The translations under genes were made by a program, and so were the position numbers. A stretch of DNA of 64,000 bases from an uncultured virus (IMG/VR IMGVR_UViG_3300020049_012467) (taxonomy: Duplodnaviria > Heunggongvirae > Uroviricota > Caudoviricetes). How positions within the stretch are numbered: the stretch's first letter is position 1; each line of letters begins with the position of its first letter. The DNA is taken from the IMG/VR virus record IMGVR_UViG_3300020049_012467. The stretch is one strand, 5' to 3'. Under the pieces are notes generated by a model. The model searched no databases and had not been told where the DNA came from. It was given only the letters and a program-made list of their open reading frames with translations. Below, piece after piece: positions 1 to 64,000 of this stretch.

Positions 1-1023
1 GTCTTCGTTGAAGTACCAGCCACGCGCCGGGGTGCCCGACACGACGCGGTGATCAACCGGAACGGTTTCCACCGGGCCACGCTCAGTGTAGGCGCCGACG
101 TACTCAGGCGGGCCGAAGGCGAAAATTTCGCCCGAGCCGAGAACCTTGAGTTTCGGATCGCGGAATTGATCCGTCAGAACTTCGGTGCCGTACAGCGTGC
201 CGACCACGCCAGTCATGATGATGTCGTACTTCGACACCGGATCGAAGAAATTCGCGAACGTGGGCGAACCGATCATGTCTTCCATCACGTTCGCCGCCAT
301 GAGCAGCAGCGAAGGCGCTTGGCCCCAATGCGTGATCTGGCCGCGGATTTGCGCGACAGACTGCGGCGTGTAGGAACCGCTGATGTAGACGATATCGTTG
401 TCGACGTCGGCCAATTTTTTCGCCATGGCGATCAGGACGCGATCTTCCGTGACCATGAATTGCTTCAGAGTCTCGTAATATTTCTCGTCCAGAATGTCGG
501 CGGAGCCCTGATTGATCTCTTTGTTGGTGATCATCAGGCTGGCGTGAATATTCCACTCCGGCGGCATGATGTAACGGTCGCGAATGAACATCGGTTCGAT
601 GCTCGAAGCGCCCGTCGCCTGATAGGCTTCCGTATCGACGCGCTTGACGCGGTGACGCGGGAACGAACCTTGAGCGAGTTCGCCGCGAGCAAGAATGCGA
701 CGCATGAAGCCTTCGCGTTCAATGCTCGTGTTCAGCGTGGCCGAAACCATGCTGCCGATTTCGACCCAAGCGGGAGTCGTCACGTCGTTGTAGGCTGCGG
801 CGACTTCCTTGAACGACTCAATATTTGCTTCGTGACGTTCTTGGGCAGTCTCGCCAGCCGTGGAAATTTCCCGGCTCTGAACAGCGCGAGCGAGTTGTTG
901 CTGACGCTGCATGAGTTCGAGTTTCGATCCGGCGTTGAGTTCGCCGTTGTTCCCGATGAGGAACTCCGAACCTTTGCCTTCCGGGCGGAATTCGGTCGCG
1001 TGTTGCTTATTGGTGCGGAACAT
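1..1023 (-). CDS. Major capsid protein (3'-truncated by window edge; absent from ORF track)
   Basis: Manual translation from the ATG at 1023 (AGGAG RBS at 1034-1038) gives MFRTNKQHATEFRPEGKGSEFLIGNNGELNAGSKLELMQRQ...EREGFMRRILARGEL...DILDEKYYETLKQFMVTEDRVL. These motifs resemble RSL1-like jumbo phage capsid proteins from memory. The gene lies downstream of protease and scaffold genes. Confidence 0.8.
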   Translation of the reverse strand, partial: MFRTNKQHATEFRPEGKGSEFLIGNNGELNAGSKLELMQRQQQLARAVQSREISTAGETAQERHEANIESFKEVAAAYNDVTTPAWVEIGSMVSATLNTSIEREGFMRRILARGELAQGSFPRHRVKRVDTEAYQATGASSIEPMFIRDRYIMPPEWNIHASLMITNKEINQGSADILDEKYYETLKQFMVTEDRVLIAMAKKLADVDNDIVYISGSYTPQSVAQIRGQITHWGQAPSLLLMAANVMEDMIGSPTFANFFDPVSKYDIIMTGVVGTLYGTEVLTDQFRDPKLKVLGSGEIFAFGPPEYVGAYTERGPVETVPVDHRVVSGTPARGWYFNED

Positions 1024-1081
1024 AGTGTGGTTACTCCTGATTTCTTTGTGTGCTGGTCTGATTATTTCAAATCAGGCCGGA

Positions 1082-1807
1082 CTACGCCTGACCGACAGCG
1101 TCGAATTGGACGCCAAGCCACGGCGAGTCGACTCCCGGTGCAGCAACCGGTTTGCCCGCAACCTTGCCGCCGTTGACGGAAGCGAGGGTCAGAAGGCCGG
1201 AAGCAGTCGAGATGATCTGCGCGTTGTTGTTGTAGCCGCCCCAATTGTCAGCGGCGACGAACTGATCCGTGAAGACCACACCACGCTGGATGATGCCAAC
1301 CGAACGCGTGACCGAACCGGCTTCGCGAGTGGCGAGGTCGCCGCTCTTGTAATATTTCCGTTCGGCTTCCTCGATGGTGAGGGCGCGCTTGTAGGTCGCC
1401 TTCAGTGCAACGCCGGATTCGTCGGCGTGCAGGGTGATGACGTTGTTGGTGATGATGAACGCACCATCGCCAGCAGACGAAGCGTGGTAGGTGATCTGAG
1501 CGCCGGTATCGACACGCTCAAGACGCATGTCGGTGGACGGCGTGACCGGCGAGTAGTCGAGGGTCAGCGTCGTGCCAACAGCCGTCTTAATTTCCACCAC
1601 GACTTCTTTCGTCGGGTAGGACAGACGGGTCAGCGCAAAGCCGAGGAAAAGTTCGTACTGCGTGGCAGACGAAGGCTTGGCGACGAGTTCGCCATTTTCC
1701 CAAACACCCGCGAGGCCCTGACCTTCGACGAGTTCGTCGATGGTCGAGTGGAGCTTGAACTCCTTGACGTTGCGCGGATCGATTTTCGATTTTTCGATGT
1801 TCAGCAT
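1082..1807 (-). CDS. Virion structural protein (probable capsid decoration/cement protein)
   Basis: 241-aa ORF with AGGAG RBS. It sits between the scaffold and MCP genes and has the same leader (AGGAGTAACCA) as the MCP gene. Confidence 0.6.
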   Translation of the reverse strand: MLNIEKSKIDPRNVKEFKLHSTIDELVEGQGLAGVWENGELVAKPSSATQYELFLGFALTRLSYPTKEVVVEIKTAVGTTLTLDYSPVTPSTDMRLERVDTGAQITYHASSAGDGAFIITNNVITLHADESGVALKATYKRALTIEEAERKYYKSGDLATREAGSVTRSVGIIQRGVVFTDQFVAADNWGGYNNNAQIISTASGLLTLASVNGGKVAGKPVAAPGVDSPWLGVQFDAVGQA

Positions 1808-1874
1808 AGTATGGTTACTCCTGATGTATGCTGCTTTCCGTTACAGTCCGTATTTCAGAACCGCTCAGGAAAAA

Positions 1875-3688: not shown

Positions 3689-5596
3689 TTATTTTGGGGC
3701 CATATTTTTCGGGGCACGCATTCCGTTATCCAGAAACCACTGCTGGGTCACAGCGGGATCGATATACGACTTGACGGACGTAGACCACAACGGAGCGGTT
3801 GTTTTATTTCCGTCCGCATCAACCTTGGTCGACTTGTGCCCCAGCGCAATGGCAACCTTCTCGGCCACTTGGTAGCGGAAGAAGTCTGCGGCGTCGCGAA
3901 CAATGGCGTCGTAGTTGGTGACGTCCTTTGGAGCCTTCCATTTTTTCGCAGCGATAATCTGCTTGGCGAGCGTGGTGCCTTTGGCGTGGCGCATCTTGTG
4001 CGCGCCAAATCCATCGGGGAGCCCAAAGTTCTTTAGGAAGCGGTTGAAGTCTGTAGCGCTGACGTACTTGCCGCGTTTGACCAGCGGGTGCGCCCACAGA
4101 AAGTCGTTTGGTTTTTTTCCTGCGCTGAGCTTCTTGACGAACAGCAGCAGCTTCTTTGCGGCGGGTGAAGCAGTGGCCTTGATGGTGTGCTTCTGGCGAA
4201 CAGCTTTCTTGCCCGAGTACGAAACGACCATGACTTCGGCGTCCAGACGCGTGACGTGTCCAACGCGCCACGTCGAAAGGCCAAACGTATTTTTTGCCTT
4301 TTCGTTGCCCTTGCCGTCCTTCACGAGCGACTTGTTGTCCTTGCCGCCAATACGCGCCTGCGTCTCGTAGATTGTGACTGCCATAGCTGACAGGATTGTG
4401 TCGATGGTGATGCGTTGCGACGGCGACCACGCCAGCAGCGGTGCTTCCCATTTTTTCCTGAAGCCTTCAATGCCTTCGAGCGCCGACCGGATGGTGGTGA
4501 ACTTTTCGTCTCGGGCCTTCTGGTGATAGTCGTAGGTGTAAAAATACCCCTTCTTGTCCGTCTTTTCGTCGTACGCGGAAAAGACGTTGGCGTCGTCGGC
4601 CTTGGCGTCGTAGCTGCGGTTCATTTCGACTTCGCGGCCAAGCTTGGGCATTCCAAAGATGGGCTTGTCTGCGTCGGTGAACAGCTTGACGTTATTCTCG
4701 AAGATACCTGCGCGACCTTCGTAACCATCAGGGAAGTACGTAACGTCGACTCCGACTTCCTCCAGACGTTCGTTGATTTTTTCAATCGGAAGCGACTTGG
4801 CGCCAGACTTGCGCAGCACTGAGGTAACAGCGTCGCGCCACAGGTTGCGAAGTTCGACGTTGAGCTTCATATATTTTTCGTACAGCGCACGCTTGGGATG
4901 CGACAGCCCAAACTTGCGTTCCTCTTGGAACGTCAGCCTGTAGCGATCTTCAGCGACCTTCTCTCCCAGCAAGCGCTTTACGATGTGGCGAAGCTGATCC
5001 TTGAGCAGATCGAACGACACTGCATCCTTGATGGGCGGCGCAAACTCGGCAGTCAACTCGGGGATGCCAAGCTTCTCAATCATGCGGACGATATTTTTCC
5101 ACGATGACACAGACTTGTTGCGGTAGTAGACGCCGATGGCCGACAGGATTGCAATGTCGTCGTGCGAATACTGGATGGTCTGCTTGGCCGTCTTCTGAAG
5201 CCCGAGCAGCGCCTTGCCGATGAGGCGCATGTATCCAGCGACCGTGTCGTCAATTTTTCCAGCTTGCAACGCGATTGCCAGCTTCATCATTTCTTCCTGA
5301 TTGATCGGAAGTCCGACTGCAACGCGCATGTAGGTAATGCCGTCCACCCAGCGAGGAAGCAACTCCATGCGAATTTTTTCCGACAACGGCTTGTTGTCAT
5401 GTTCGCACTTGGCGATTGCCGCCAGAAAGGCAATGAAGCTGAGAATGGCTTCGCGGACCAGTGGGTCATGCTGCGGGTCCGCCCACGGCGAAACCTGAGC
5501 CACCTTTACGGGCGGTTCAGGCGGCTTTGCCTTCCGGACTTTGGGCGCAGCTTTCGCATTCCGCGAAGGGCGGTTTTTGGACATTCCCATTTTCAT
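3689..5596 (-). CDS. topIB: DNA topoisomerase IB (poxvirus/bacterial type) with long N-terminal extension
   Basis: TopIB catalytic motifs appear in order: QARIGG (Arg), TFGLSTWRVGHV, YSGKK (Lys), HKMRH (Arg), ALGH (His) and VKSYIDP (catalytic Tyr). Confidence 0.85.
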   Translation of the reverse strand: MKMGMSKNRPSRNAKAAPKVRKAKPPEPPVKVAQVSPWADPQHDPLVREAILSFIAFLAAIAKCEHDNKPLSEKIRMELLPRWVDGITYMRVAVGLPINQEEMMKLAIALQAGKIDDTVAGYMRLIGKALLGLQKTAKQTIQYSHDDIAILSAIGVYYRNKSVSSWKNIVRMIEKLGIPELTAEFAPPIKDAVSFDLLKDQLRHIVKRLLGEKVAEDRYRLTFQEERKFGLSHPKRALYEKYMKLNVELRNLWRDAVTSVLRKSGAKSLPIEKINERLEEVGVDVTYFPDGYEGRAGIFENNVKLFTDADKPIFGMPKLGREVEMNRSYDAKADDANVFSAYDEKTDKKGYFYTYDYHQKARDEKFTTIRSALEGIEGFRKKWEAPLLAWSPSQRITIDTILSAMAVTIYETQARIGGKDNKSLVKDGKGNEKAKNTFGLSTWRVGHVTRLDAEVMVVSYSGKKAVRQKHTIKATASPAAKKLLLFVKKLSAGKKPNDFLWAHPLVKRGKYVSATDFNRFLKNFGLPDGFGAHKMRHAKGTTLAKQIIAAKKWKAPKDVTNYDAIVRDAADFFRYQVAEKVAIALGHKSTKVDADGNKTTAPLWSTSVKSYIDPAVTQQWFLDNGMRAPKNMAPK

Positions 5597-7555: not shown

Positions 7556-8491
7556 TCAGGCGCCACGGTTGTTTTCCCATGAAATATTTTCGGCAGGTCC
7601 GATGGCCGCTGACCACGCCTTGACGAACTCGGCGTCCACAGAGCCAAGATCGATGGTGCAGTGATACTTGTTCACTTGCACGGACGGGCGGTCCTTTGTC
7701 TTGCGCTGCAAGACTGGAAACGCGGCGATAATCCCGAACGCCATGTCGATGCGAATGGGGTCGGTTGAATTTTTCATCACGGCGACCGGAAGCTTCAGCA
7801 ACCCGCGCGAGTATTGCGCCTTCAACCAGTTGAAGTCCTGCGCCTGCTTGTTCAGAATGCGCTCGTACGACGAAAACTCGTTGAGCGGCGCCGGAAGGCT
7901 GTAGATATATTTTCCGTCCTTGGTCTGGTTGATCCAGCTTCCGCCGGGGTCCATGTTCGCCATAATGACGCGCGCACGGCTTTCCCAATCCACAACCTTC
8001 ATTGCGGCCAGCACCAGCGCGCGGAAGTACATTGCTTCAATCATCGAGCGATGCTTGTTCAGGGATTCGCGGTCAGGCATGCCAAACCCGGTCACGATAT
8101 TTTCCATGAACAGGTCAAAGTCCGGCATGACGTTCATGATCTGTGAAGTCGGACGCTTTGCGTTGGAGATAATCATGGCGACACGCGCCAGAGTCTCGAC
8201 CACAACGTCGGGCAACGTCTGCGGATAGTCAATCATGCGCGGATCGGCTTCCGTCTTGCGCAGGTTCAGCGTTTCCACTGCAACGCGTACAATGAGCGGG
8301 GTAGACAATTTTTTCGCAGCTTCGTTGTTGGCGTCAGCTATTGCGCGCGAAAGGGACTTGCGGGCAAACCTGCCGCGCTGGATCATGAAGTCAGCGCCTT
8401 CACGCAGGACTGCATTACGCGACAGCATCAAGCCGTTGCTCATAATGTCCTGTTTGTCGTGAAGCGTTGCGCCGTACCAGAAATATTTCAT
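7556..8491 (-). CDS. Hypothetical protein in head module
   Basis: 311-aa ORF translationally coupled to the portal gene by an ATGA overlap. Confidence 0.7.
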   Translation of the reverse strand: MKYFWYGATLHDKQDIMSNGLMLSRNAVLREGADFMIQRGRFARKSLSRAIADANNEAAKKLSTPLIVRVAVETLNLRKTEADPRMIDYPQTLPDVVVETLARVAMIISNAKRPTSQIMNVMPDFDLFMENIVTGFGMPDRESLNKHRSMIEAMYFRALVLAAMKVVDWESRARVIMANMDPGGSWINQTKDGKYIYSLPAPLNEFSSYERILNKQAQDFNWLKAQYSRGLLKLPVAVMKNSTDPIRIDMAFGIIAAFPVLQRKTKDRPSVQVNKYHCTIDLGSVDAEFVKAWSAAIGPAENISWENNRGA

Positions 8492-27186: not shown

Positions 27187-27497
27187 AGCTGACTCGTCCC
27201 ATTCAGCGCGCCAGATATTTCACGACGCTGCATATCCTTTCCGGCGGCAAACGCCCGCAGGATGAAGCGCTGCATTTCTTCCCATCCGTACGCAATGTTC
27301 TTCTTCGTCTCGTCGTCGGCTTCCTTGTAATAGACGGAATTCACATCGAGGTAGAACGGCAGCGAGCCAATCTCGTAATACTTGTCGTTGTCGTCCCGCA
27401 GCAGGTTGGGCACAACGATGAAAATTTTCCCGTTGCTGACTCGGACTTCCGGCTGCATCAGGAGCCGCAACGCGCTGGGGAGGGGACGTTCAGCCAT
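27183..27497 (-). CDS. Hypothetical protein
   Basis: 104-aa ORF in a coupled run. Confidence 0.6.
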   Translation of the reverse strand: MAERPLPSALRLLMQPEVRVSNGKIFIVVPNLLRDDNDKYYEIGSLPFYLDVNSVYYKEADDETKKNIAYGWEEMQRFILRAFAAGKDMQRREISGALNGTSQL

Positions 27498-36967: not shown

Positions 36968-37465
36968 TCAGCCGCCCATTTTGCCGGTTTTCTTCTTGCC
37001 GAACATGCCAAAGGATTTTTTCTTGCCCTTCGGATTTGCCTTGCGTTCCTTGGCTGCGGCTTTGGCCGCTTCCTTTCTGGCAGCGTGTTCAGCCGCCAGA
37101 GCTTCCGCCCGCTTCTTGAAGAACTTGTCGCCAATCTTCTTGAAATATTTCCCGTCAATGCCGCACTTCTTCTCGTCCACGCGCACGAGAGCGGCGACTT
37201 GGCCGAGGAACTTGTCGTGGTTGCAGGATGAACCGTTCTCAGGATCGCGTTTGGCGAAATCGTAGAACAGGCAATCGACGCAGCGCACGCGTGGCGTCAC
37301 TGGCGGCGGCATCTTTGGAGCCTTGCCGCGCGGAAGGTGCGCTGTGCTTTCGATGAGAGGTTTGGATTTTTTCTTCTCGGGAGAGGGCTTGCCTTTCGGT
37401 TTGCCCATCAATCCCGTTGGCGAGTCAGTCTTGTCGACGTTTAATTTTTTGAAGCCCATCTTCAT
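36968..37465 (-). CDS. Basic Cys-containing protein
   Basis: CVDC...C...C motif; Lys-rich. Confidence 0.6.
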   Translation of the reverse strand: MKMGFKKLNVDKTDSPTGLMGKPKGKPSPEKKKSKPLIESTAHLPRGKAPKMPPPVTPRVRCVDCLFYDFAKRDPENGSSCNHDKFLGQVAALVRVDEKKCGIDGKYFKKIGDKFFKKRAEALAAEHAARKEAAKAAAKERKANPKGKKKSFGMFGKKKTGKMGG

Positions 37466-43635: not shown

Positions 43636-46600
43636 CTATCGCTTACTGCTCATGCGGCCAGTCTTGACGGACTTGACTGCTTTTGTGATTTTTTTCGATG
43701 TTGCCGACTTGCCTCCCATCTTGCCGGTAGGCTTGGACTTGGCGGAAGGTTTGGATTTGCCAGCGAGTTTGCTGGACGGCTTGGTCTTTCCAGCGCCTTT
43801 GGCGGGCGGTTTGGAAAGCTTGCCGACAGGCGGCAATTTTTTCTTCTTCTCTGCCGTCTTGACGACGCCGAGACGTTTCACTTCTTCCATCACGTCGTCA
43901 AAATCGTTCACGTCATAGTTGCGGTGATCCGCAATGACGCTGAGTTCCTGTTTGGCGATGGAAACACCAGAGACAAACTTGACAGCCCACGTGTCGGTGA
44001 GTTGCGGCGGTTTGACGGACGCACGTTTTTTCTTGATGCCGGAATACATCTTGACGAGTTCCTGCAACAGCGTCGGATGGTGTGAGTCGACGTCGAAGCA
44101 GAGATAGGCCGCACCGCCGAACGTGGCGAGCCACGGACGCACGGAGCGTTCTTCGCCCTTCTGATTTTTCGGCAAGTCCTTGTGCGAAATCTGGTAGAAG
44201 TTCTGGAACGCACGCATCGAGTTGGCAGCGCTGTCATCGACAATGAGCGTCTTTGACTTGGTACGCATCTGTTCGACGGTTTCGCGAATGTAGTCGAGAC
44301 GTTCCTTCTTGATGGAATATTTCTCCACCAAGCGGCCGTCTTTGCCAATCCAGTCTTCCAGCACCAGAAAGTTGGTGATGTGGATGCGGATGAAGTCAGG
44401 AACACGCGTCCAGCCACGTTTGCCGAAGTCGGAGAGGAAATAATCGCGCTGCGATCGATCCTTGGTTCCGTCCACATAAACGAGTGCGCGCGAGCCGTTG
44501 AGAACGAGCGGATAGATTGTCACGTCGCGCGGCTCGGACGGATCGTCCGGTTCTTCGTTGCGATCTTCCAGAACGTTCTCGTCGGTGTCCTCGTCTTCTT
44601 CCTGTTCGACGATGGGCTTGACCGGCTTGCCTTTGCGGATTGGAATATTTGAGTTCAGGTCGTACTTGGTCAGGTCCTTGAGCGGGATCAGCATGCCATC
44701 AGAGTCGATGGTCGGAGCGCCAGCGTCACCGAGGATGGTCAGCAGGCGTTCAAATTTTCTCATGTGCTCCGGGTCTTTGGGAACGAACGCGGCGCCTTTC
44801 GGAACAGCGACCATGCCGAGGCCCGGAATATCAACGCGCACCTTGTCGACAAACAGCGTGCGAACGCGGCCCGGCCCGTAAGCCGTCCACACTGGCGTAC
44901 CAGTGTCGACTTCGATGAGAGTTTTTTCCGAATTCAGACCTTCGCCACCTTCCTCGTCATCCTCGTTGCCGCTTTCGCGGTCGGATTGAGTGATGGATTG
45001 CAGACCCAGCCCAAGCGGATCGTAAATTTGCTGGCCGGTGACATACGGAGAGAAGGCGCGACGTGTGCCGGGCAGATCAGCGGAATGCTGAACCTTGATC
45101 ATGGCGAGACGTTTGACGTCTTCGTCCGTGATTTCGCGGTCCGGATATTTTTCCTGCAACTTGCGTTTGAGGGAGGCGCGAACCTTGCGGAACTGGTCCT
45201 GCTCCCACGCGATGTATGCTTTATACACGTCGAAATAAACCTGCAATTTGTCAGAGGTAAGTTCTGAGATAGCTTCCGGCGACATTTTGAAACCGCCGTC
45301 AGGCAGCGCCAGATTGCCACCCTCGCCAAAGCGGTGCGCCATTTCGCGACGCCATGCAGGGTCTTTAGCGTAGTCAAGCTGAGCCTTCGTGACAATTTTT
45401 GTCACCATGCGCGCAAACTTGGCGTAATCGACCGACGCCGTGTCTGCGTTGCTGGAAACACCCGCGACGATATCGATGTTGATAAATTCGCGGTCATCGC
45501 CTTTCGGACTCGGACGCGCAACACGAGCGCGAGCCTGTTCCATGCGGCCCGGCGACCAGATGGACTGAACTTCAATCAGGCGCGAAGCGATTTGCAGGTT
45601 GTGACCTTCCTGCATGCTCGCTTGGTCGGCCACCATGATTTTTATCTTGGGGTTGTTCTTGAATTCCTCAAGCGCCTGTTCCGACGACAGCAATTTTTCC
45701 CCGCGGTCTTTCGCAGTGGGCGACGGCGTGTAGCGAACAGCCATTGCACGGAACTGCGGAGACAGGTGTTTCATGATGTGTCGCGACAACGGCTTGTTGT
45801 ACGACAGGATCAGCACCTTGTTGCGCGGCGACTCGTCTTTCTTGATGCTCGAATACGGCGTGCCGTTGAAGTGCGCGTCGAGGATCTTGTTGATAATTTT
45901 TACTTTCGGAGACACAAGGTCTTCCGGCGCCGGTTTCGGCACAAGGTTGGGGAACGACTCCAACGCCTCCATGCCTTCGCCAAGTCCTGCGGCGTTCTTG
46001 GAGTCGTCTTCGTCGGGAGCGCCCATGAAAATTTCAAGGCGATAGAGAGTCGACTCCATCAGCGCTTCGACTTTGGCTTCGAAAGCCTCGTCTTCTTCGC
46101 CGTCTTCAGAGGGCTTGCCGCCGCGCTTCTTCAGCATTTCCTCTTTCTGCTTCTGGAACTCTGCCGACTGCATTTCCAGAAGCTTCTTGTAGAAGTCTTC
46201 CTGCCTCGGCGTCATTGGAGCAGGGTGAATATTTTCCTTGATGTACGGCATGATGAACGCCCATTCCTTGCGGCGCTGGGTCGTTCGTGCGTACTGGTCG
46301 TCGATCAGGTCAAAGATTTCGTTGGCGGTCGCGTCTCCATTCTTCAGCTTGAGGCCGTTCATGAAGCGCTTCTTGAAATAATCGTCATCGCCCAGCGAAC
46401 CAGTCGTGGACGTGATGCCGACAAGATCGCGCGCCTTGTCAGTGACGAGCGTGCCGCTCATCCAGCGGCGAATTTTTGCCGTGGCGAGAATGTTGTTGAC
46501 GGCTTGCGTGACACCAGACGTGACTTCCTTGATGTAGTGCGCTTCGTCCACTGCGACGTAATCGAAATCGCAGAGGCCAAGCATGTCGGCCATCGGGAAT

Positions 46601-55745: not shown

Positions 55746-56552
55746 TTATTTGCCGTGCTTGCGCAGAGCTTCTTCCCAACGGACGAAGAACGTCGTGTCA
55801 GCGAACAGCTTCTTGTAGTAGTCGAGAACCTTGTTCGTTGCAGCGGCGGCGACCACAGTGTCCACATCAGCGAAAATTTTCTGATCCGGCAGCGGCGCCG
55901 AGGCGACGATGAGGTTCGGATCGAGTTCAATCGCCGCGTCTTCCATGCGGTTGGCGAGAACGACGCCCTTGTTCGTCAGCACAGGGAAGCCGAATTCCAT
56001 GCGGCCTTTGGCGGGCGAGTAGTACATGACGTAGTGAGCGTTGCGAGCGCGCGGCGAAGCCGACGCGAATTCCGCCGAAGGAAAATAACGTTTGCGCGAA
56101 GCGAGAACCGCCGACAGGTCTTCGTCCGTGTTCATCACGAGACGCTTGGTGTCGCCGTCGCCCACGACAGTCCAAATTTGGTTGTCGTCATCGAGGAAGG
56201 TCGAAGATGCGAGCACCTTCATTTTTTTGTGTTCTTCCTCGTAGGGGAGCGTCTGCTGGTTCATCAGCGCGATTGCCGTGTAGTAGTTGCGGCCGCGCGC
56301 GGAAGCGCACTTGGTGATGGACTCGGGCACAAGGCGGACGCGGCGGTTGTTGCGTTCCGAGAAGGACGCAGTGATTTCCTCACGCGTGTACTCGGTAATA
56401 TTTGTCGCAAGAACGACGCGAGCGGCCTGCGGGCCGTCGGCGCGGATGAGTTCGAACGACGCAATCTCCACCGGGCAGAGACGGTTGCCGTTGTTTTCGG
56501 CGCGAGCGTCAGCCATATTGGACAACACTTTCGAGAAGCCGGGCTTGTTCAT
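55746..56552 (-). CDS. Probable virion structural protein
   Basis: Start MNKPG at 56552 after GGAG; lies in the structural neighbourhood. Confidence 0.6.
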   Translation of the reverse strand: MNKPGFSKVLSNMADARAENNGNRLCPVEIASFELIRADGPQAARVVLATNITEYTREEITASFSERNNRRVRLVPESITKCASARGRNYYTAIALMNQQTLPYEEEHKKMKVLASSTFLDDDNQIWTVVGDGDTKRLVMNTDEDLSAVLASRKRYFPSAEFASASPRARNAHYVMYYSPAKGRMEFGFPVLTNKGVVLANRMEDAAIELDPNLIVASAPLPDQKIFADVDTVVAAAATNKVLDYYKKLFADTTFFVRWEEALRKHGK

Positions 56553-58761
56553 GGAAATTATCTCCAAATGGGTTGTAGGCTACGGCGGCGATTGAGAGGT
56601 TGACGATCTGGGCGCGCCGTTTGCCAGAAGCCAACACAACTTGGTTGTTCTTTTCGGACACTCGCATGTTGCGATGGTAGCCATCGATCATGGTCGAGTA
56701 TTTTTTCTCGTCCGGGTTCACCGCGAGACGACAAATCAGCAATACGTTAGGGTATTTCTTGACCGTGAAGTAGATATCAGCCACGTCTCCGGGCAAATGC
56801 GCGTCGCGATGCGAGTGCTTGATTTCCTTGATCTGGATCGTCCCGCTCTTGGCGTACTTGTTGACGAACCAGTCGTAGAAATAATACGTCGAGTCCTGAA
56901 TGACAATGTCAGACCCGCCGCCATCCTCGCCAACGTTGTGCGGATGCGTGCGGACCGTAAAGTCTTCCGACTTGGCCTTGCCGTTGATCCACGCGTTGTC
57001 ACGCTCGGGAGAATGGACACCGCCGCGCGACAGGACAGAGCCGCCTTTGGCGTACAGGTCCTTGATGAAAATTTTCATCGCGGCCGTAGTGTCGCTGTCG
57101 TTCTCGGTCACGTCGTACAGATCGGTGGAAGCCTTCTTGAGCTTCTCCATCATTATTTTCTTCAACGGCTGCGTCTGTCCCGGCGCAACGTAGTCGTCGG
57201 GAAGAAGCTGCGGATCAGAGTTGACCGACATGCCGTGAATTCTCGCGCCGTGCGGCTTGGAGCCGGAAATCACAGGCGGCGGGCCAATACTGATCTTCTT
57301 GGGCGGGTTCTTCAGCGCATTGATGCGACGATCCGTCTTGGCCTTCTGAGCGTCGATCAGCGCAAACAATTTTTTCTCAGTCATGTGACCGCCGTCAATC
57401 GCAGCCTGCACTGCCTTCAGCGCAAACGTGCCGGGGCCGGGCTGCGGAAGGTCTTTGCCGAGAACGTTCTTGAGGACGTGCATAATGTCCTGCCAGTCGT
57501 ACTGCGCAACGCGAGCCTTGAGATTGCCGTCAAGCTTGGACGCAAACGCGTCGTTGACCTGTGTCTCGATGCGCGAGAAACCAACGGCGTCCAGTTTGGT
57601 CGACAAATATTTCAGCGCAGCCAGCTTGTTCTTCGGCTTGGAGCGGCCAAAGTCTGCCTTGAAGGTCGAGACAATCTTCTTCAGCGACCATTCCTTGCCT
57701 TCGAACAACTCCTGATATTTCTTCAGCAGTTGAGACGGTGTGTCGGTCGGCAGCGGCGCAGCCTTGGGGACTTTGCGCTTGGCGGCGACCGGCGAAACGA
57801 CAGCAGGCTTGGACGCAGCCTTGTTGCGTTGCTCAGCGGGAGTGCCAGCGTCTTTCTTGTACGATTTTTTCTCTTTGCCTTGCAGATCGGGGGCCTTGCC
57901 CTTGCGCTTGGTCGAGTTCTTCTGGAGTTCTTCGTGAACGCGCGCCGGGATGGCGTACTCAATCATCTTCTCTTTGAGTTCAGTGACGAAATATTTTACG
58001 TCGTCACCCTTCTTGAGCATGCGCAGGCCAATGACAGAGCCCTTCTTGAGCGCCAGCTTTGCACGGCCACGCACTTTCGGGTTTGCCTTGCCCTTCATCA
58101 CGCGCCAGTCGTACTGCGCAGACGGCGCAAGGTAGGCGAGCGTCGTGAACAGGCTTTCGCCACCACGCCATGAATTTTTTCTATCAACGGCGTACATGCG
58201 CTTGTTCGCCATGACGTGCGACGCCGTTTCGGGCGAGACACGTGCTTCGACCAGTTTCGTGTCGATGTGAAACTTGATCGAGGTTTTTCCGGTAGCTGAC
58301 GCGACAACCTGCACAGCGCGATTTTTCAGTGACACGCCCATGATGGAAATGTCCTGCGCCACTCTGTAAACGGCGCCAACGTCGCCAAACGTCTCGGCGG
58401 GACCGTGAATGTGGTTGTCGCGCGCCATGAAAAATTGGTCGCCAGACTTTTCCATGTAGTACGCCGGTTGCGACACGCCAGCGAGAACGAGATAGATCAT
58501 GCCCGGCGGCGGGACCATGCGTTCCGGACGCTCAATGGTGGCGAGAACGGCGTTGAAGCAATTGGGATGGAAAATTTTCTCATCCAGCAGTTTGAAGCCG
58601 CACTTGTGATGCACCATGATACGCGTCGGAGTTGTCTCCGCCACGCATGCAGTGAGCATGTCCTTGCGCCAGATGTTTGGAGCAATCGACTGGAAGCCGA
58701 TATTTTCCATTACGGCGGCGAACGCTTTGTTCTGTTCGGTGGTGAGCTTCATTGGTGTCAT
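56509..58761 (-). CDS. Large basic hypothetical protein
   Basis: 750-aa ORF with genome-typical codon usage. Confidence 0.65.
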   Translation of the reverse strand: MTPMKLTTEQNKAFAAVMENIGFQSIAPNIWRKDMLTACVAETTPTRIMVHHKCGFKLLDEKIFHPNCFNAVLATIERPERMVPPPGMIYLVLAGVSQPAYYMEKSGDQFFMARDNHIHGPAETFGDVGAVYRVAQDISIMGVSLKNRAVQVVASATGKTSIKFHIDTKLVEARVSPETASHVMANKRMYAVDRKNSWRGGESLFTTLAYLAPSAQYDWRVMKGKANPKVRGRAKLALKKGSVIGLRMLKKGDDVKYFVTELKEKMIEYAIPARVHEELQKNSTKRKGKAPDLQGKEKKSYKKDAGTPAEQRNKAASKPAVVSPVAAKRKVPKAAPLPTDTPSQLLKKYQELFEGKEWSLKKIVSTFKADFGRSKPKNKLAALKYLSTKLDAVGFSRIETQVNDAFASKLDGNLKARVAQYDWQDIMHVLKNVLGKDLPQPGPGTFALKAVQAAIDGGHMTEKKLFALIDAQKAKTDRRINALKNPPKKISIGPPPVISGSKPHGARIHGMSVNSDPQLLPDDYVAPGQTQPLKKIMMEKLKKASTDLYDVTENDSDTTAAMKIFIKDLYAKGGSVLSRGGVHSPERDNAWINGKAKSEDFTVRTHPHNVGEDGGGSDIVIQDSTYYFYDWFVNKYAKSGTIQIKEIKHSHRDAHLPGDVADIYFTVKKYPNVLLICRLAVNPDEKKYSTMIDGYHRNMRVSEKNNQVVLASGKRRAQIVNLSIAAVAYNPFGDNFHEQARLLESVVQYG

Positions 58762-60699: not shown

Positions 60700-61221
60700 C
60701 TACACAGCAGCGCGTTTGCGGCCTTTGGACGGACGAGCCGCCGCCATTTTGCCGCCAGCCATGGCGTTCATTTTGCGACGCGTGATGGCGCCTTTGGACT
60801 TGGCCGCGCCGGACGAAGATTTTTTGTCCATGCGCTTGAACGGCTTGCCAGCGTTCTTCGCAGAGACGGTGGCTTTCCACAGCACCTTGCCGGATTTGCG
60901 GTTCTTGACACCAATCTTCAGACCCGAACGAACGCCACGACCGTCGTTCATTTCGACGCGAATGCGCGAGTACATGCGGCGCATCGCAGCGTATTTCGGG
61001 TGCTTCTTGCCTTGCGACAGAATTTTGTAAACGGCGTAGAACTTGCCGCTCACGCCCTTGAAGCCGGGGCGACCCGGACCCTTCTGGCCGGTCGGGGATT
61101 TTTTCGCCTTGGCAGTTTTCGCAGCCGGGGCAGCTTTCTTGGCTTTGCGGCCAGCAGGTTTCTTGCTTGCCTTGGCCTTCGCGGCCATCGTGCCTGCAAT
61201 CTCGCGGAATTTCATCTTCAC
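60700..61221 (-). CDS. Histone H1-like Lys/Ala/Arg-rich DNA-binding protein
   Basis: Extremely basic 173-aa protein (AAKAKASKKPAGRKAKKAAPAAK); AGGAG RBS. Confidence 0.7.
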   Translation of the reverse strand: MKMKFREIAGTMAAKAKASKKPAGRKAKKAAPAAKTAKAKKSPTGQKGPGRPGFKGVSGKFYAVYKILSQGKKHPKYAAMRRMYSRIRVEMNDGRGVRSGLKIGVKNRKSGKVLWKATVSAKNAGKPFKRMDKKSSSGAAKSKGAITRRKMNAMAGGKMAAARPSKGRKRAAV

Positions 61222-61388: not shown

Positions 61389-62786
61389 TCAGCCTTGCGT
61401 TCCAAGCCCCTTGTAATTCTTCAGGATGACGTTGCGGTGGCGGTAGAGATTTAGAAGCGCAACTGGTTCAAATAATTGGAGTTTTTGGGCGGACGTCTCA
61501 ATGCTAAAAATTTGCCCGCGCGACGTGCGTTGAGGGGTGACTGAGATAATCCGCCAAGCCCGCTTATATTTCCCATCAATGACAATGGAGCCGAACTCCA
61601 TGTTGCCAATCGTGGCAGGCCATTCAATATTTGTCTGCGTGGTCGCTTCCATCAACTCCCACGTTTCGGCGCTCTCAATGTTGGGCATCTGTCCAATCGG
61701 GCGCGTGGTGTATTCCAGCACAATCTCGACGTGCGTAAAAATTGTCGAGTATTCCTGCGGCATGTTGGGATCGACAGTGACGCGGATTTTGGTAGCGCGG
61801 TTGTCCATGCTGCGGCGTGCGTTGAATGCGTGAGCCGTCAGCGGAACCCAAGTGCTCAGCCCCGGCCACTGCACTTCCGTCTTGAGCCCGACTGCAAGCT
61901 GAAGATTGTTGAAGATGCGGACAATGAGGCACTTCTTGAAATATTTCGGGAAGTCCATCACAAACACAGCGGGGGCTGCGTTGGTGAAACCGGAGAACAC
62001 GTTAGGCCGCGCGCCGGGATCAATGGAGAAGCCGCCAATGTCAGTGATGTTGGTTGCGTCCAGCGCGTAGCGGCGTCCGTTCTGCAACTGGTATCCCTCA
62101 GTCCAGCCCGTCGAGAAGCAAATGCCGCACGGCGTATTTTTTCCGCCGAGAAGCATTGCTGCGGCAGAGCGGTTGAGACGCGCGGCTTCATCGGGAGACT
62201 GCATCGCGGCAAAGCTGGCGAGGTATTCGTCGACTTCCTCGCTGCCAAATTCATTGGGGGAGTCAAATTCCCCATCGGCGTCCACGTATGCGTCTTCAAG
62301 CGATCCACCGTCATCCGTGAAGCGGTAGACCTTTTCCCCGTATCCTGCATCCTCTTTCGCAGCGCGTTGATCGTCGCGCAGGGAAATAATTCCAAATCTG
62401 GTCGACTCGTCTTCCGCCAGATCATCCACGCTTGGCGGATCAGTGTCGGCGTTGTCCTGAATTGTGGACACTGACGTATCGCGCTGATTTTCACCATGGC
62501 AGGTGCAGAACATTCCGGCGTTCTGTTTGCGCCACAGCAAAAATTCCACGCCATCCACAGCCAGCGCATTTGCGTGGCGGTCATTTGCGCGATCCACCAA
62601 TTCATTGATGGCGTGCTTTGCGCCCTTGGTCAGAGAGCGGTTGTTGGCAGGCGTGGATTTGCGGCCGGAAATAGAACGACGCGAACCAAATCTGGTCTTC
62701 ATTTCAGCGTCCTGATTTATTTTCGCGAGCGTCCGCGAAAGATGGTAAAATATACGCTGTCCTAAATTAGTGGGTATGGTTTCCAC
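61389..62786 (-). CDS. Probable virion head-completion protein (start may be MKTRF at 62703)
   Basis: CTC...CGICFSTGWTEGY Zn-like motif and C-terminal WRIISVT, both resembling head-closure proteins. Confidence 0.5.
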   Translation of the reverse strand: METIPTNLGQRIFYHLSRTLAKINQDAEMKTRFGSRRSISGRKSTPANNRSLTKGAKHAINELVDRANDRHANALAVDGVEFLLWRKQNAGMFCTCHGENQRDTSVSTIQDNADTDPPSVDDLAEDESTRFGIISLRDDQRAAKEDAGYGEKVYRFTDDGGSLEDAYVDADGEFDSPNEFGSEEVDEYLASFAAMQSPDEAARLNRSAAAMLLGGKNTPCGICFSTGWTEGYQLQNGRRYALDATNITDIGGFSIDPGARPNVFSGFTNAAPAVFVMDFPKYFKKCLIVRIFNNLQLAVGLKTEVQWPGLSTWVPLTAHAFNARRSMDNRATKIRVTVDPNMPQEYSTIFTHVEIVLEYTTRPIGQMPNIESAETWELMEATTQTNIEWPATIGNMEFGSIVIDGKYKRAWRIISVTPQRTSRGQIFSIETSAQKLQLFEPVALLNLYRHRNVILKNYKGLGTQG

Positions 62787-62795: not shown

Positions 62796-63449
62796 ATGCC
62801 AAGCATGTCCCCGAATGCGCTGACAGTCATGGGAATTGACGTAGGCACCGTCAATTCAGCATTTGGCGTCAGCCGCTACAACCCCGACCACAAATCATGG
62901 AAGCTGATTGACGCTGGCATGATTGAGGCGACAATCAACAACCTCAAGTACGACGCTGAAGTGAAGAAGAAAAAAAAGCGCGGCAAGGCGGGGGCTGACG
63001 GAGAGTTTGACACAATCAAGCTCACGTCGTTCCGCAAGCAATTGAAGGCGCTGCTCGCTTGGCTGGACGCCATGCACGAAAAATTCGGCTTTACGGCCAT
63101 CACCATTGAGCGCTTCCAATCGCGCGGCGGCGTGTTCGGCGCCAGCATGGCGGAAATCTGCGCAGTGATTGTGGGGGTGGTAGCTTCGTGGGCTGCGCAA
63201 CACCGCGTGAAAATCATGCTGGTGACTGCGGCGGACTGGAAGAACCGCTTCACACAGGCGCAGAAGATCAAGGACATGAAGGAGTTCTATAAAAAATTCC
63301 GCGCCAAGACGTGCCCGCCTCACATGCTGGACGCCAGCCTGCTTGGAATGTACGGCGGATCGAAAATGTTCAAGCAGGAGCCATTTTCGCCATTCAGGAA
63401 TTTCCACATCGACTGGATGCGGGCGCTGTACGCCAAGCATGGTAAATAA
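62796..63449 (+). CDS. RuvC-like Holliday junction resolvase
   Basis: MGIDVGTVN (Asp), TIERFQ (Glu), ADWK and HMLDA (Asp). Confidence 0.8.
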   Translation: MPSMSPNALTVMGIDVGTVNSAFGVSRYNPDHKSWKLIDAGMIEATINNLKYDAEVKKKKKRGKAGADGEFDTIKLTSFRKQLKALLAWLDAMHEKFGFTAITIERFQSRGGVFGASMAEICAVIVGVVASWAAQHRVKIMLVTAADWKNRFTQAQKIKDMKEFYKKFRAKTCPPHMLDASLLGMYGGSKMFKQEPFSPFRNFHIDWMRALYAKHGK

Positions 63450-63455
63450 TTCCGC

Positions 63456-63908
63456 ATGAAAGTGCAGCGATGCTTCTATTCGAGGATTGAATTTCTGCCG
63501 CGCTGTCCAGTCAGCGAATGCCCTGCATTTGTGCCGGGGTCCAAGACGGGGTGCGCCTATCTGGAAATTCCAGAGGACAAGACGAAAATGTCGAAAGGCG
63601 ACATGAGCCGGTTGTTCGGCGTGTCGCCCGCTACTGCAAACAAGAAATATTCCATCGGCCGTGAAGAAGTTCGGGACATGGCCCGGCTGGTGATGGAATT
63701 CACGTCCAACTCGATACCGGAGACAAACACCTTCAAACTCGAAGGCGCTTTCTTCAGGAAATTTTCAATTCCGGTAAATAGGGCTTCGCTGCGCATCGCC
63801 GCTCGCAACCGCGAAATTCGCCTGATCCTCAAGCGACGAATGAGCAAGACACAGTACATGGCAATTTTCAGGAAAGGAAAGCCACATGAACAACGCAACA
63901 AAGGTTGA
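63456..63908 (+). CDS. Cys-rich protein with possible HTH
   Basis: CPVSEC...C, then MSKGDMSRLFGVSPATA. Confidence 0.55.
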   Translation: MKVQRCFYSRIEFLPRCPVSECPAFVPGSKTGCAYLEIPEDKTKMSKGDMSRLFGVSPATANKKYSIGREEVRDMARLVMEFTSNSIPETNTFKLEGAFFRKFSIPVNRASLRIAARNREIRLILKRRMSKTQYMAIFRKGKPHEQRNKG

Positions 63909-64000
63909 CGCGGCAGCGCCCACCATCGACGCCAAGCGCCTCGACCGTCTGAGAAAAAATCTGATCGACCCGGCCAAGATTGAACTGCGTGATCTGCAAC
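63886..64000 (+). CDS. Hypothetical protein, truncated by window end
   Basis: MNNATKVDAAAPTIDAKRLDRLRKNLIDP..., with an AAGGA RBS. Confidence 0.55.
   Translation, partial: MNNATKVDAAAPTIDAKRLDRLRKNLIDPAKIELRDLQ

What the first reader, a model, noticed from the sequence alone, without database searches (positions are those of the whole stretch)
1..64000. Window-wide AT palindrome GAAAWWTTTC written into coding sequence by synonymous codon choice
Seen: in GC-rich DNA, the perfect palindrome GAAATATTTC starts at 8480, 32040, 36634, 37142, 40565, 42191 and 61938, and GAAAATTTTC starts at 27420, 30740 and 57067. Near-matches (for example 121, 863, 3535, 7581, 13531, 21773) recur every few hundred bases or less. 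They lie inside genes, where peptides such as KYF and KIF use AAA/TAT/ATT although the genes otherwise appear to favour AAG/TAC/ATC. A specific AT-rich 10-mer is expected well under once in 64 kb of this composition (rough estimate). Inference: this is a selected, dispersed DNA signal. It could be a binding site for a phage genome-organising or protecting protein (the H1-like protein, TopIB and the SNF2 ATPase are candidates in this window), a site for a host nucleoid/silencer protein, or a DNA-bending signal. It may be the cis half of an undescribed phage chromatin-like system.
Basis: partly seen in the sequence, partly recalled or inferred. Interest (0 to 1): 0.8.

Follow-up and report, generated by a model that had tools for sequence, protein, structure and literature searches.

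The report
Evenly spaced AT palindromes inside phage genes
A large GC-rich wastewater phage writes a short symmetric A/T motif (roughly GAA-AT-rich-TTC) into its genes about every 180 bases by choice of synonymous codons, an evenly spaced DNA signal of a kind not described for phages and most likely an array of landing sites for a DNA-organising protein.

Summary
GAAAWWTTTC occurs 18 times, against 0.7 (dinucleotide shuffle) or 1.6 (synonymous-codon shuffle) expected. This 10-mer is one form of a wider signal. A/T runs of exactly 7-9 bp, of the type G-AA...TT-C, number 360 in 64 kb. They occur in every gene and in all three codon phases.

The run-length distribution has two peaks, with few runs of 4-6 bp and many of 7-8 bp. 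The motif is the same on both strands. AA..TT runs are 6x enriched, while TT..AA, AA..AA and TT..TT runs are not. G..C flanks are enriched and C..G flanks are not.

The sites are evenly spaced: mean gap 178 bp, CV 0.50, few gaps under 100 bp and few over 360 bp. There is no strict period and no 10.5-bp phasing. A codon-pair model trained on the window itself does not reproduce the counts or the spacing. A further 23.7 kb of the same phage repeats all of these features. PaBG, phiRSL1, Motura, RHph_N46 and 68 related loci lack them.

My best reading is a selected array of double-stranded-DNA sites for an architectural protein. The partner was not identified. TopIB and SNF2 are also present in relatives without islands. 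The orphan basic protein with an AT-hook-like core remains a candidate.

The parts
1..64000 (.). Array of 360 short A/T islands: runs of 7 or more A/T, mostly 7-9 bp, consensus G-AA(A)-www-T(T)-C. Mean gap 178 bp. Present in every gene.
   Evidence: Run-length counts for lengths 1-11 are 7976, 5031, 1462, 543, 184, 75, 157, 140, 38, 16, 8. Of the 360 islands, 150 are AA..TT, 180 have one half (AA start or TT end), and 30 have neither.
8480..8489 (.). Perfect palindrome GAAATATTTC. It overlaps the ATGA start/stop junction of genes 7556-8491 and 8488-10419 (peptide MKYF).
27420..27429 (.). Perfect palindrome GAAAATTTTC inside ORF 27183-27497
30740..30749 (.). Perfect palindrome GAAAATTTTC inside ORF 30464-30814
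32040..32049 (.). Perfect palindrome GAAATATTTC inside ORF 31731-32237
36634..36643 (.). Perfect palindrome GAAATATTTC inside ORF 36267-36902
37142..37151 (.). Perfect palindrome GAAATATTTC inside ORF 36968-37465
40565..40574 (.). Perfect palindrome GAAATATTTC inside the DNA polymerase A gene
42191..42200 (.). Perfect palindrome GAAATATTTC inside the DNA polymerase A gene
55872..55881 (.).
57067..57076 (.). Perfect palindrome GAAAATTTTC inside ORF 56509-58761
58570..58579 (.).
61938..61947 (.). Perfect palindrome GAAATATTTC inside ORF 61389-62786
60700..61221 (-). Candidate partner protein (inferred only). Orphan 173-aa protein, 30% K+R, with a Lys/Ala-rich N-terminus, the segment SPTGQKGPGRPGFKG (GRP, an AT-hook-like core) and the C-terminal segment RPSKGRKRA.
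   Evidence: The only homologue is one 40%-identical protein. The basic tails and the GRP core are conserved in it and the middle of the protein is not. No Pfam family. The Atlas model has pLDDT 0.49.
3689..5596 (-). Type IB topoisomerase.
   Evidence: PF01028, E 1.5e-9; homologues in PaBG, phiRSL1, Motura and RHph_N46. The sampled stretches of those phages lack islands.
43636..49266 (-). 1876-aa SNF2-family ATPase.
   Evidence: PF00176; homologues in 53 phage records of the wider group.
17450..23235 (-). Tail-fibre-like region. Islands are present (26 in the two ORFs) but mostly of an atypical form: 9-bp runs that start with T, such as TAAAAATTA and TATTTATTT. Only 4 are AA..TT. The region includes internal repeats and the run of N at 21386-21485.

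Best explanation
The window is part of a jumbo phage found in wastewater and sludge, a distant relative of Pseudomonas phage PaBG. Its genome carries a selected array of double-stranded-DNA sites. Each site is a short A-tract/T-tract junction of 7-9 A/T pairs bounded by G and C, and it reads the same on both strands (5'-G AA www TT C-3'). There is about one site per 178 bp, placed wherever the protein sequence allows it (K, N, I, F, Y and E codons) by choosing AT-rich synonymous codons.

I propose that the sites are high-affinity landing or nucleation sites for a phage-encoded basic architectural protein. Such a protein would read the narrow minor groove of an AnTn tract and coat, compact or mark the otherwise GC-rich phage chromosome. 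The even spacing would arise in two ways. Each bound complex would occupy roughly 100 bp, which gives the short-range exclusion. Selection would fill any gap longer than about 350 bp so that coverage is continuous.

Shown: the existence of the signal, its symmetry, its length limit, its even spacing, its placement by synonymous codons, and its restriction to this lineage.
Inferred: that a protein reads it, which protein, and what the coating does. The best candidate in the window is the orphan AT-hook-like protein at 60700-61221.
For: 1. Selection at the DNA level.
- GAAAWWTTTC: 18 against 1.56 under the codon-shuffle null. G-W8-C: 69 against 10.9.
- GAA-W4-TTC: 45 against 3.7, z 21.7.
- The most enriched 8-mers under that null are dominated by this family.
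- A codon-pair model trained on the window itself gives 7.8 +- 2.7 GAA-W4-TTC sites.

2. Length-specific signal.
- Run-length counts fall to 75 at 6 bp, rise to 157 at 7 bp and 140 at 8 bp, then drop to 38 at 9 bp.
- PaBG, at the same G+C content, decays steadily: 158, 37, 16, 4, 1 for lengths 5-9.

3. Same motif on both strands, as expected for duplex recognition.
- S-AA..TT-S: 129 against 21.2. S-TT..AA-S: 0 against 7.0. AA..AA: 12 against 16.5. TT..TT: 4 against 4.5.
- G-W8-C is 6.3x enriched and C-W8-G is 0.8x.
- Dipeptides KF, KI, KY, KN and NI are encoded entirely in A/T in 23-49% of cases. The reversed dipeptides are not: FK 0 of 55, IK 4 of 55, YK 2 of 31, FN 1 of 33.
- A->T polarity points to a rigid, narrow-groove A-tract. 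A site selected only for easy melting or as a flexible TpA hinge would not show this polarity.

4. All three codon phases are used. Only 18 of 360 islands lie near start codons. There is no flanking hairpin.

5. Even spacing.
- CV 0.50. There are 4 gaps under 20 bp, where about 38 are expected for random placement (my arithmetic from the mean gap). Almost no gaps exceed 360 bp.
- A random choice among the 1370 codon-compatible potential sites gives CV 1.08 +- 0.06, minimum 0.90 in 2000 draws, against 0.70 observed for coding-only sites.

6. Replication outside the window. In a further 23.7 kb of the same phage (record G001) there are 135 islands with gap 176 and CV 0.46, and GAA-W4-TTC is 16 against 2.1.

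7. Restricted to this lineage. None of 68 related loci of 4 kb or more has two peaks in its run lengths. PaBG, phiRSL1, Motura and RHph_N46 have 0-1 GAAW4TTC sites.

8. Weak sign of purifying selection. None of 86 substitutions between the window and G001 falls in an island; 3.6 are expected.

9. A protein restricted to this lineage with a conserved GRP core and Lys/Ala-rich tails is encoded in the window.

10. The sequence is natural. Fragments with no differences from the window were found in metagenome contigs of four studies.
Against: - No binding partner was identified or tested. The candidate protein is only a compositional and motif-level guess, and its GRP core (PGRPG) is not the canonical RGRP.
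- An AT-hook is not a symmetric dimer, so the G..C symmetry is not specifically explained by it.
- Only about 88 kb of a genome of perhaps 250 kb was seen, so the real partner may lie elsewhere or belong to the host.
- There is no 10.5-bp phasing, no long-range period and no periodic signal between islands. Nothing therefore points to wrapping or to a defined higher-order fibre.
- Because the motif is palindromic, an RNA-level reading cannot be excluded from gene orientation. Only two genes lie on the other strand.
- The closest relatives (TerL 84% and 74% identical) could not be fetched as DNA. Conservation of site positions across real divergence is therefore untested.
- The host genome is unknown and could not be checked for the same habit.
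Confidence: 0.45

Rival explanations
1. Self-marking sites for a scanning enzyme. The dense palindromic motif would label phage DNA as 'self' so that a translocating nuclease or helicase spares or handles it differently from host DNA. The enzyme could be phage-encoded and degrade host DNA, or be a host RecBCD-like enzyme, in the manner of Chi. Alternatively a packaging or repair machine would recognise its own DNA, in the manner of uptake signal sequences.
For: The motif is strongly over-represented in this genome and absent from relatives of the same G+C content. Even spacing with a hard upper limit on gaps is what a scanner with a finite search length would select. A palindrome would work from either direction. 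Dispersed uptake sequences are a known precedent for a self-marking motif embedded in genes (PMC1939737, title and start of abstract seen in the listing).
Against: The known marks of this kind (Chi, USS/DUS, KOPS; recalled) are asymmetric, oriented, mostly G-rich and 10-30 times sparser. No nuclease or recognition gene was linked to the motif here. Depletion of sites closer than 100 bp is not needed for a simple mark.
Confidence: 0.15
2. An RNA-level signal. Almost all genes are on one strand, so the islands would appear in the mRNAs as AU-rich, unstructured patches about every 180 nt. They could serve as RNase E-type cleavage sites, as entry points for S1 or the ribosome, or as breaks in GC-rich RNA structure.
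For: All genes but two lie on one strand. The excess of A in the centre of the islands follows the coding strand, and it flips in the two + strand genes. AU-rich single-stranded segments are the known substrates of RNase E (recalled).
Against: The motif has the same form on both strands in its flanks and its polarity: G..C is enriched but C..G is not, and AA..TT is enriched but AA..AA and TT..TT are not. An RNA signal has no reason to be symmetric in this way. Pure A or U runs would be equally unstructured, yet they are not enriched. The central A excess is explained by the abundance of lysine codons. No data on expression were obtained.
Confidence: 0.12
3. Protein-independent DNA mechanics. 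The islands would act as regularly placed curvature or stiffness elements, or as sinks for unwinding and supercoiling, that ease packaging, ejection, replication or transcription of a GC-rich 250-kb molecule, without a dedicated reader protein.
For: AnTn junctions are intrinsically curved and have unusual groove geometry (recalled; Hagerman-type A4T4 against T4A4 behaviour). The spacing of about 178 bp is close to the persistence length of DNA. The tolerance of length (7-9 bp) and of central sequence fits a physical property better than a base-specific code.
Against: There is no helical phasing between sites, so curvature cannot add up. Relatives of the same G+C content and genome size do without the islands. 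For melting or hinge functions TpA-centred T->A runs would serve at least as well, yet they are not enriched (0 against 7.0). The strong G and C preference at the borders suggests contacts beyond a bulk property.
Confidence: 0.12
4. True chromatin-like packaging. The islands would be linker or dyad signals that position nucleosome-like particles, with the SNF2 ATPase, TopIB and the H1-like protein as the protein side of the system.
For: The spacing of about 150-200 bp with short-range exclusion resembles a nucleosome repeat. Poly(dA:dT) tracts exclude nucleosomes in eukaryotes (recalled). DNA-encoded nucleosome arrays inside coding regions are known in Tetrahymena (PMC4617968, title and start of abstract seen in the listing). 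H1-like proteins have been noted in other jumbo phages (PMC12619734, passages read).
Against: There is no 10-bp WW/SS periodicity between islands and no strict period. No histone-fold gene was detected in 88 kb. SNF2 and TopIB are shared with relatives that lack islands. The 'H1-like' protein matches no H1 or Hc1 family.
Confidence: 0.1
5. A neutral by-product. The pattern would come from context-dependent mutation or from a generic codon-pair bias inherited from the host, with no function.
For: The host genome could not be examined. AT-rich context can raise local mutation towards A/T (general knowledge).
Against: A codon-pair model trained on the window itself fails on counts and on spacing. 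Any model with memory of 6 nt or less gives run lengths that decline steadily beyond its memory, not a dip at 6 and a peak at 7-8 (reasoning). Even spacing among 1370 potential sites, the A->T polarity and the G..C borders are not mutational signatures that I know of. None of 86 strain substitutions hits an island.
Confidence: 0.04

Closest known systems
DNA uptake signal sequences (USS/DUS) of Pasteurellaceae and Neisseriaceae, and Chi sites
   Same: Each is a short motif that is hugely over-represented in one genome, sits largely inside genes and is tolerated through codon choice. USS are reported to be unusually evenly spaced (recalled, Karlin and colleagues; see also PMC1939737, title and start of abstract seen in the listing).
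   Different: Those motifs are asymmetric, occur in cellular genomes, appear about once per 1-5 kb and have a known reader (the uptake machinery, or RecBCD). Here the motif is palindromic and A/T-only, occurs once per 178 bp in a phage, and has no known reader.
Poly(dA:dT) nucleosome-excluding tracts and DNA-guided nucleosome arrays in Tetrahymena coding regions (PMC4617968, title and start of abstract seen in the listing)
   Same: The signal is short A/T-rich sequence written into coding DNA at a spacing of about 150-200 bp, which organises a chromosome-coating protein.
   Different: That system is eukaryotic and based on histones. Here no histone-fold gene was seen, there is no 10-bp periodicity between sites, and the islands are sharp 7-9-bp spikes rather than broad swings in G+C content.
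AT-hook (HMGA-type) minor-groove sites, for example the PRDII core GGGAAATTCC (recalled)
   Same: A G/C-bounded A->T tract with a narrow minor groove. A protein in the window carries a conserved GRP core within Lys-rich tails.
   Different: HMGA sites are regulatory and sparse. The phage protein has PGRPG rather than the canonical RGRP, and it is untested.
Nucleation sites of H-NS/MvaT/Lsr2-type silencers, including element-encoded ones (CgpS of prophage CGP3).
   Same: AT-rich patches in GC-rich mobile DNA serve as loading sites for a coating protein.
   Different: Those proteins prefer flexible, TpA-rich DNA over A-tracts (recalled, Gordon et al. 2011). Here T->A runs are not enriched, the spacing is about 8 times denser, and no H-NS, MvaT or Lsr2 family was found in 88 kb.
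Phage phi29 protein p6 nucleoprotein complex (recalled)
   Same: A phage-encoded architectural protein covers the whole phage genome and reads DNA shape rather than a strict sequence.
   Different: p6 binds every 24 bp on an AT-rich genome without discrete codon-embedded sites. No homologue was detected here.
XmnI-type recognition sequence GAANNNNTTC (recalled) and the yeast RRPE element GAAAATTTTC (PMC6411004 and PMC8421047, seen only as rows in the listing)
   Same: Identical half-sites (GAA/TTC). RRPE is letter for letter one of the palindromes found here.
   Different: Restriction sites are avoided rather than enriched, and their centre is free. Here only A/T centres are enriched (45 against 3.7) while centres containing G or C are not (31 against 42.1). 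RRPE is a eukaryotic promoter element.

Membership tests
Restriction/modification site of the GAANNNNTTC type | Half-sites GAA/TTC matter and the four central bases are free | tested here: not met
   GAA-W4-TTC: 45 against 3.7. The same frame with any G or C in the centre: 31 against 42.1. Spacers of 3 and 5 A/T are also enriched (28 against 6.5; 8 against 1.3).
Restriction/modification site of the GAANNNNTTC type | A cognate methyltransferase or endonuclease gene is present | tested here: inconclusive
   Pfam and PHROGs scans of the window's proteins and of the 24 proteins of the G001 extension found no methyltransferase. The only nuclease families found were an HNH endonuclease and a RuvC-like resolvase. 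Most of the genome was not seen.
Nucleosome-positioning sequence code | Regular spacing of about 150-200 bp | tested here: met
   mean gap 178 bp, mode 140-160 bp, CV 0.50.
Nucleosome-positioning sequence code | 10-11-bp periodic WW/SS pattern in the wrapped DNA, and a strict repeat | tested here: not met
   power at 9.5-12.5 bp is 0.94-1.06 of the median; no dominant period and no 10.5-bp phasing.
Nucleosome-positioning sequence code | A histone-fold or other wrapping protein is encoded | tested here: inconclusive
   None was found in the 88 kb scanned. The rest of the genome was not available.
H-NS/MvaT/Lsr2-type silencer nucleation sites | Preference for flexible, TpA-rich A/T DNA over A-tracts (recalled) | tested here: not met
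   A->T runs are enriched 6x. T->A runs: 0 against 7.0. FK dipeptides encoded entirely in A/T: 0 of 55.
H-NS/MvaT/Lsr2-type silencer nucleation sites | A silencer-family gene is present in the element | tested here: inconclusive
   No such Pfam family at E <= 0.001 in any scanned protein. The genome is incomplete.
AT-hook minor-groove sites | At least 5-6 contiguous A/T pairs of the AAATT type bounded by G/C | tested here: met
   logo G(80%)-AA-www-TT-C(70-74%).
AT-hook minor-groove sites | A protein with a GRP core flanked by basic residues that binds these sites | not testable with these tools
   The protein at 60700-61221 has KGPGRPGFKG, conserved in its single homologue. Binding was not tested. 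The core is not the canonical RGRP.
Chi/USS-like self-marking motif | Over-represented in its own genome relative to relatives | tested here: met
Chi/USS-like self-marking motif | Asymmetric motif with an orientation bias | tested here: not met
   the motif is the same on both strands.
Promoters (sigma-70 or T4-late type) | Located upstream of gene starts, asymmetric | tested here: not met
   18 of 360 islands lie within -20..+12 of a start codon. The motif is palindromic.
Intrinsic terminators or hairpin repeats | Flanking inverted repeat | tested here: not met
   beyond the first G..C pair, flank complementarity equals the shuffled control (z between -0.9 and 1.4).
Programmed frameshift slippery sites | Fixed reading-frame register | tested here: not met
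   all three phases are used (W8: 71/27/13; W7: 37/65/36).

The most novel reading that the evidence does not exclude
This jumbo phage lineage has evolved a genome-wide positioning code of its own. By extrapolation, about 1,400 evenly spaced palindromic A-tract sites per genome, all written through synonymous codons, would nucleate or anchor a lineage-specific basic AT-hook-like protein into a continuous protein-DNA fibre. That would be a phage 'chromatin' with a defined DNA code, built independently of histones and of H-NS-type silencers. It would serve to compact, protect or mark the phage chromosome during infection or in the capsid.
Probability: 0.3. Interest if true: 0.9.

Novelty: categorically new. 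Interest (0 to 1): 0.85.

Why it matters
If the islands are read by a protein, this would be the first phage genome shown to carry a dense, evenly spaced site code overlaid on nearly all of its genes. It would be an unusually clean natural example of selection on DNA shape overriding codon preference. About 5% of codons are involved, and AAA use is 97% inside the sites against 26% outside.

It would make several questions directly testable:
- how large phage chromosomes are organised and protected;
- how much 'second code' a coding sequence can carry;
- how such a code arises in one lineage while sister lineages of the same G+C content lack it.

In practice, the two-peaked distribution of A/T run lengths is a simple screen that could find further cases in metagenomes.

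Tried and rejected
- Hairpin or terminator reading: flanks are not complementary beyond G..C.
- Promoter or translation-initiation reading: only 18 of 360 islands are near starts. SD-like words precede 18% of internal islands against 12% of random positions.
- Strict periodicity or helical phasing: none. Periodic signal between islands: none.
- Amino-acid-level adaptation in TerL: island residues are no more and no less conserved than the rest (for example 92% against 85% in the closest homologue, 48% against 51% in the next). The islands use pre-existing K/N/I/F/Y positions.
- Closer relatives: megablast of 24 kb against the phage collection gave no match. The single-protein TerL scan of IMG/VR returned only the same phage. 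Profile scans returned 30 and 44 loci at 29-48% identity (apart from G001 itself at 100%), none with the trait. TerL homologues at 84% and 74% identity exist only in a collection whose DNA I could not fetch.
- The window's own assembly is not held, so the rest of the genome and the host could not be examined.
- Sequencing runs: no RNA holder is listed. The four runs laid gave short, nearly identical low-depth contigs. The 29 variant positions listed are too few to measure constraint, and none lies in an island (my comparison).
- The 'H1-like' protein: no Pfam family even at E <= 10 except a chance-level DUF. No match in phage records. The Atlas gave no usable hit. A structure prediction was not run because the protein looks disordered and has one homologue.
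- Other GRP-bearing or basic proteins (26470-26877, 36968-37465) were looked at. The first looks secreted. The second is a basic Cys-containing protein of unknown role.
- Six literature searches and passages of two jumbo-phage papers turned up no description of such an array in phages. The library lacks most subscription journals.
- A collection-wide pattern scan for other carriers was not run. Chance pairs in AT-rich genomes would swamp it.

Full report
**What the window is.** The 64-kb window is 55% G+C. It is densely coding, and nearly all genes are on the - strand, with G+C at codon positions of about 0.55/0.40/0.70. Pfam and PHROGs identify:
- major head protein (1-1023), head protease, portal and large terminase (10756-13011);
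- DnaB-like helicase, family A DNA polymerase (40112-43069), a 1876-aa SNF2-family ATPase (43636-49266) and a type IB topoisomerase (3689-5596);
- NUDIX and HNH proteins, a RuvC-like resolvase, and tail-fibre-like proteins.

TerL is 33-37% identical to TerL of jumbo phages such as Rhizobium RHph_N46, Pseudomonas PaBG and Erwinia phages. PaBG shows the same local gene order. The window's own assembly is not held. An IMG/VR record, G001 (38.5 kb), is the same phage. It is 99% identical over window 1-14930 and runs 23.7 kb further into tail genes. Fragments with no differences from the window were found at low depth in contigs of digester, activated-sludge and bioreactor metagenomes from four studies. 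The sequence is therefore natural and not an assembly artefact.

**Checking the observation.** GAAAWWTTTC occurs 18 times. Dinucleotide shuffles give 0.72. Codon choice is indeed the vehicle. Inside the islands AAA, AAT and TAT make up 97%, 95% and 82% of Lys, Asn and Tyr codons, against 26%, 19% and 22% outside.

**What the signal really is.** The 10-mer is one member of a family.
- *Length.* A/T runs of lengths 1 to 11 number 7976, 5031, 1462, 543, 184, 75, 157, 140, 38, 16 and 8. There is a dip at 4-6 bp and a second peak at 7-8 bp. Against the codon-shuffle null, runs of 5 and 6 bp are halved, while S-W8-S is 111 against 33.6 and G-W8-C is 69 against 10.9.
- *Symmetry.* The logo is G (80%), AA(A), three or four mixed A/T, T(T), C (70-74%). 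Runs that start AA and end TT number 129 against 21.2 expected. Runs that start TT and end AA number 0 against 7.0. AA..AA (12 against 16.5) and TT..TT (4 against 4.5) are not enriched. G..C flanks are 6.3x enriched and C..G flanks 0.8x. GAA-W4-TTC is 45 against 3.7, while the same frame with a G or C in the centre is 31 against 42.1.
- *Polarity at constant amino-acid content.* KF, KI, KY, KN and NI dipeptides are encoded entirely in A/T in 23-49% of cases. FK (0 of 55), IK (4 of 55), YK (2 of 31) and FN (1 of 33) are at or below background.
- *Tally.* Of the 360 islands, 150 are AA..TT, 180 have one of the two halves and 30 have neither. Every gene carries islands.
- *Other motifs.* An unbiased 8-mer scan under the codon-shuffle null finds mostly members of this family at the top.

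**Where the sites are.**
- All three codon phases are used.
- Only 18 of 360 sites lie near start codons.
- The flanks form no hairpins.
- Spacing is markedly even: mean 178 bp, median 170, CV 0.50. There are 4 gaps under 20 bp, where random placement would give about 38. Almost no gaps exceed 360 bp.
- The proteins allow 1370 potential sites, one per 41 bp of coding DNA, and 300 are realised. Drawing the same number at random from the potential sites gives CV 1.08 +- 0.06, never below 0.90 in 2000 draws, against 0.70 for these coding-only sites.
- There is no strict long-range period and no 10.5-bp phasing.
- There is no periodic composition between islands. They are sharp spikes on a flat background.

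**Controls.**
- A codon-pair model trained on the window itself, and therefore biased in favour of reproducing it, gives 7.8 +- 2.7 GAA-W4-TTC sites, no dip at 5-6 bp, and spacing CV 0.99 +- 0.07.
- PaBG has the same G+C content, yet its run lengths decay steadily and it has one GAAW4TTC in 50 kb.
- phiRSL1, Motura and RHph_N46 have none in 13 kb each.
- None of 68 related loci of 4 kb or more has more 7-8-bp runs than 5-6-bp runs.
- The 23.7 kb of the same phage outside the window repeats every feature: 135 islands, gap 176, CV 0.46, GAA-W4-TTC 16 against 2.1, and no T->A runs.
- None of 86 substitutions between the window and G001 falls in an island, where 3.6 are expected, P about 0.03. This is a weak hint of constraint.

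**Interpretation.** The motif has the same form on both strands in its flanks and in its polarity, it has a sharp length optimum, and it tolerates variation in central sequence and in spacer. This points to recognition of duplex DNA, probably by shape (the narrow minor groove of an AnTn junction) plus contacts at the G/C borders.
- A pure melting or hinge function would favour TpA-centred T->A runs, which are not enriched.
- An RNA signal has no reason to be symmetric.
- The short-range exclusion, together with the ceiling on gap length, suggests bound complexes with a footprint of roughly 100 bp and selection for continuous coverage.

I therefore favour an array of nucleation or anchoring sites for a basic architectural protein (confidence 0.45).

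**Candidate partners.** TopIB and SNF2 are core genes of relatives without islands. That weakens them as the lineage-specific partner. The 173-aa protein at 60700-61221 is 30% Lys+Arg, is predicted to be disordered, matches no family and has a single 40% homologue. In that homologue only the Lys/Ala-rich N-terminus, the segment SPTGQKGPGRP and the C-terminal RPSKGRKRA are conserved. The protein is restricted to this lineage, as the islands are, and its GRP core resembles an AT-hook. This is circumstantial evidence only.

**Rivals.**
- A self-marking motif for a scanning enzyme (0.15).
- An RNA-level AU-rich element (0.12).
- Protein-independent mechanics (0.12).
- Nucleosome-like chromatin (0.10).
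- A neutral by-product (0.04).

**Comparison with what is known.** The nearest concepts are uptake signal sequences and Chi, DNA-encoded nucleosome arrays in Tetrahymena coding regions (PMC4617968, listing and start of abstract only), AT-hook sites, and nucleation sites of H-NS/Lsr2-type silencers. Each fails at least one defining feature tested here (see the membership table).

An earlier, unchecked note of this scan (e1-5347206) reports evenly spaced AT patches every ~1.5 kb at synonymous positions in GC-rich N4-like phages that encode H-NS. It suggests the general phenomenon may recur. The present case is about eight times denser, is of the A-tract type rather than TpA-rich, and shows no H-NS gene in the 88 kb seen.

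Six literature searches found no description of such an array in a phage. Neither did passages of the PaBG paper (PMC7412058) or of a jumbo-phage paper that notes H1-like proteins (PMC12619734). The library lacks most subscription journals.

**Limits.** Only about 88 kb of the genome was seen. The host is unknown. The closest relatives' DNA could not be fetched. Nothing was tested at the bench. The claim that a protein reads the sites is inference.

Noticed in passing
window 14822-16584: Contigs of three metagenome runs (X3, X4, X8) join 14822 to 16584 with 16 other letters in between. Some strains therefore lack about 1.76 kb that here holds the small ORFs 15086-15457 and 15588-16175 and part of 16172-16813.
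   Followed up: no
window 2669-3335 (inside ORF 1875-3566, PHROG 'ATPase'): An acidic, low-complexity repeat region (GTCGTC/ATC-type, on the + strand). It is hypervariable. The window and G001 differ here by many indels, metagenome contigs show multiple joints, and summed depth is inflated.
   Followed up: partly
window 19768-19851, 21235-21318 and 21531-21539; N run 21386-21485: The tail-fibre-like genes contain repeated segments that carry the same pair of atypical islands (TAAAAATTA and TATTTATTT), a collagen-like repeat, and a 100-N gap. The assembly here may be collapsed.
   Followed up: no
window 45334-49296 (+) and many other + strand ORFs: Very long antisense ORFs, up to 1320 aa. They are shadows of GC3-rich genes on the - strand, with no family hits among those scanned. 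They are not genes.
   Followed up: partly
TerL homologues: Many relatives of the terminase carry intein/homing-endonuclease insertions (lengths 1000-1300 aa, PF14528/PF14890). The window's TerL has none.
   Followed up: no
window 36968-37465 (-): A 165-aa protein, 26% Lys+Arg, with Lys-rich tails and a central cluster of four Cys (possible zinc site). It is another possible DNA-binding protein of unknown family.
   Followed up: no
window 51105-51853 (-): The HNH endonuclease ORF (51323-51853) overlaps ORF 51105-51500. The A/T runs in this stretch are all non-canonical (none is G-AA..TT-C). This may mark a more recently acquired mobile gene.
   Followed up: no
L036 (IMG/VR contig, TerL 48% identical, G+C 0.47): This is the nearest relative whose DNA was available. 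It has a slightly heavy tail of 7-10-bp A/T runs (30, 13, 11, 9) but no second peak. It is unclear whether this is a weak or ancestral form of the trait.
   Followed up: no
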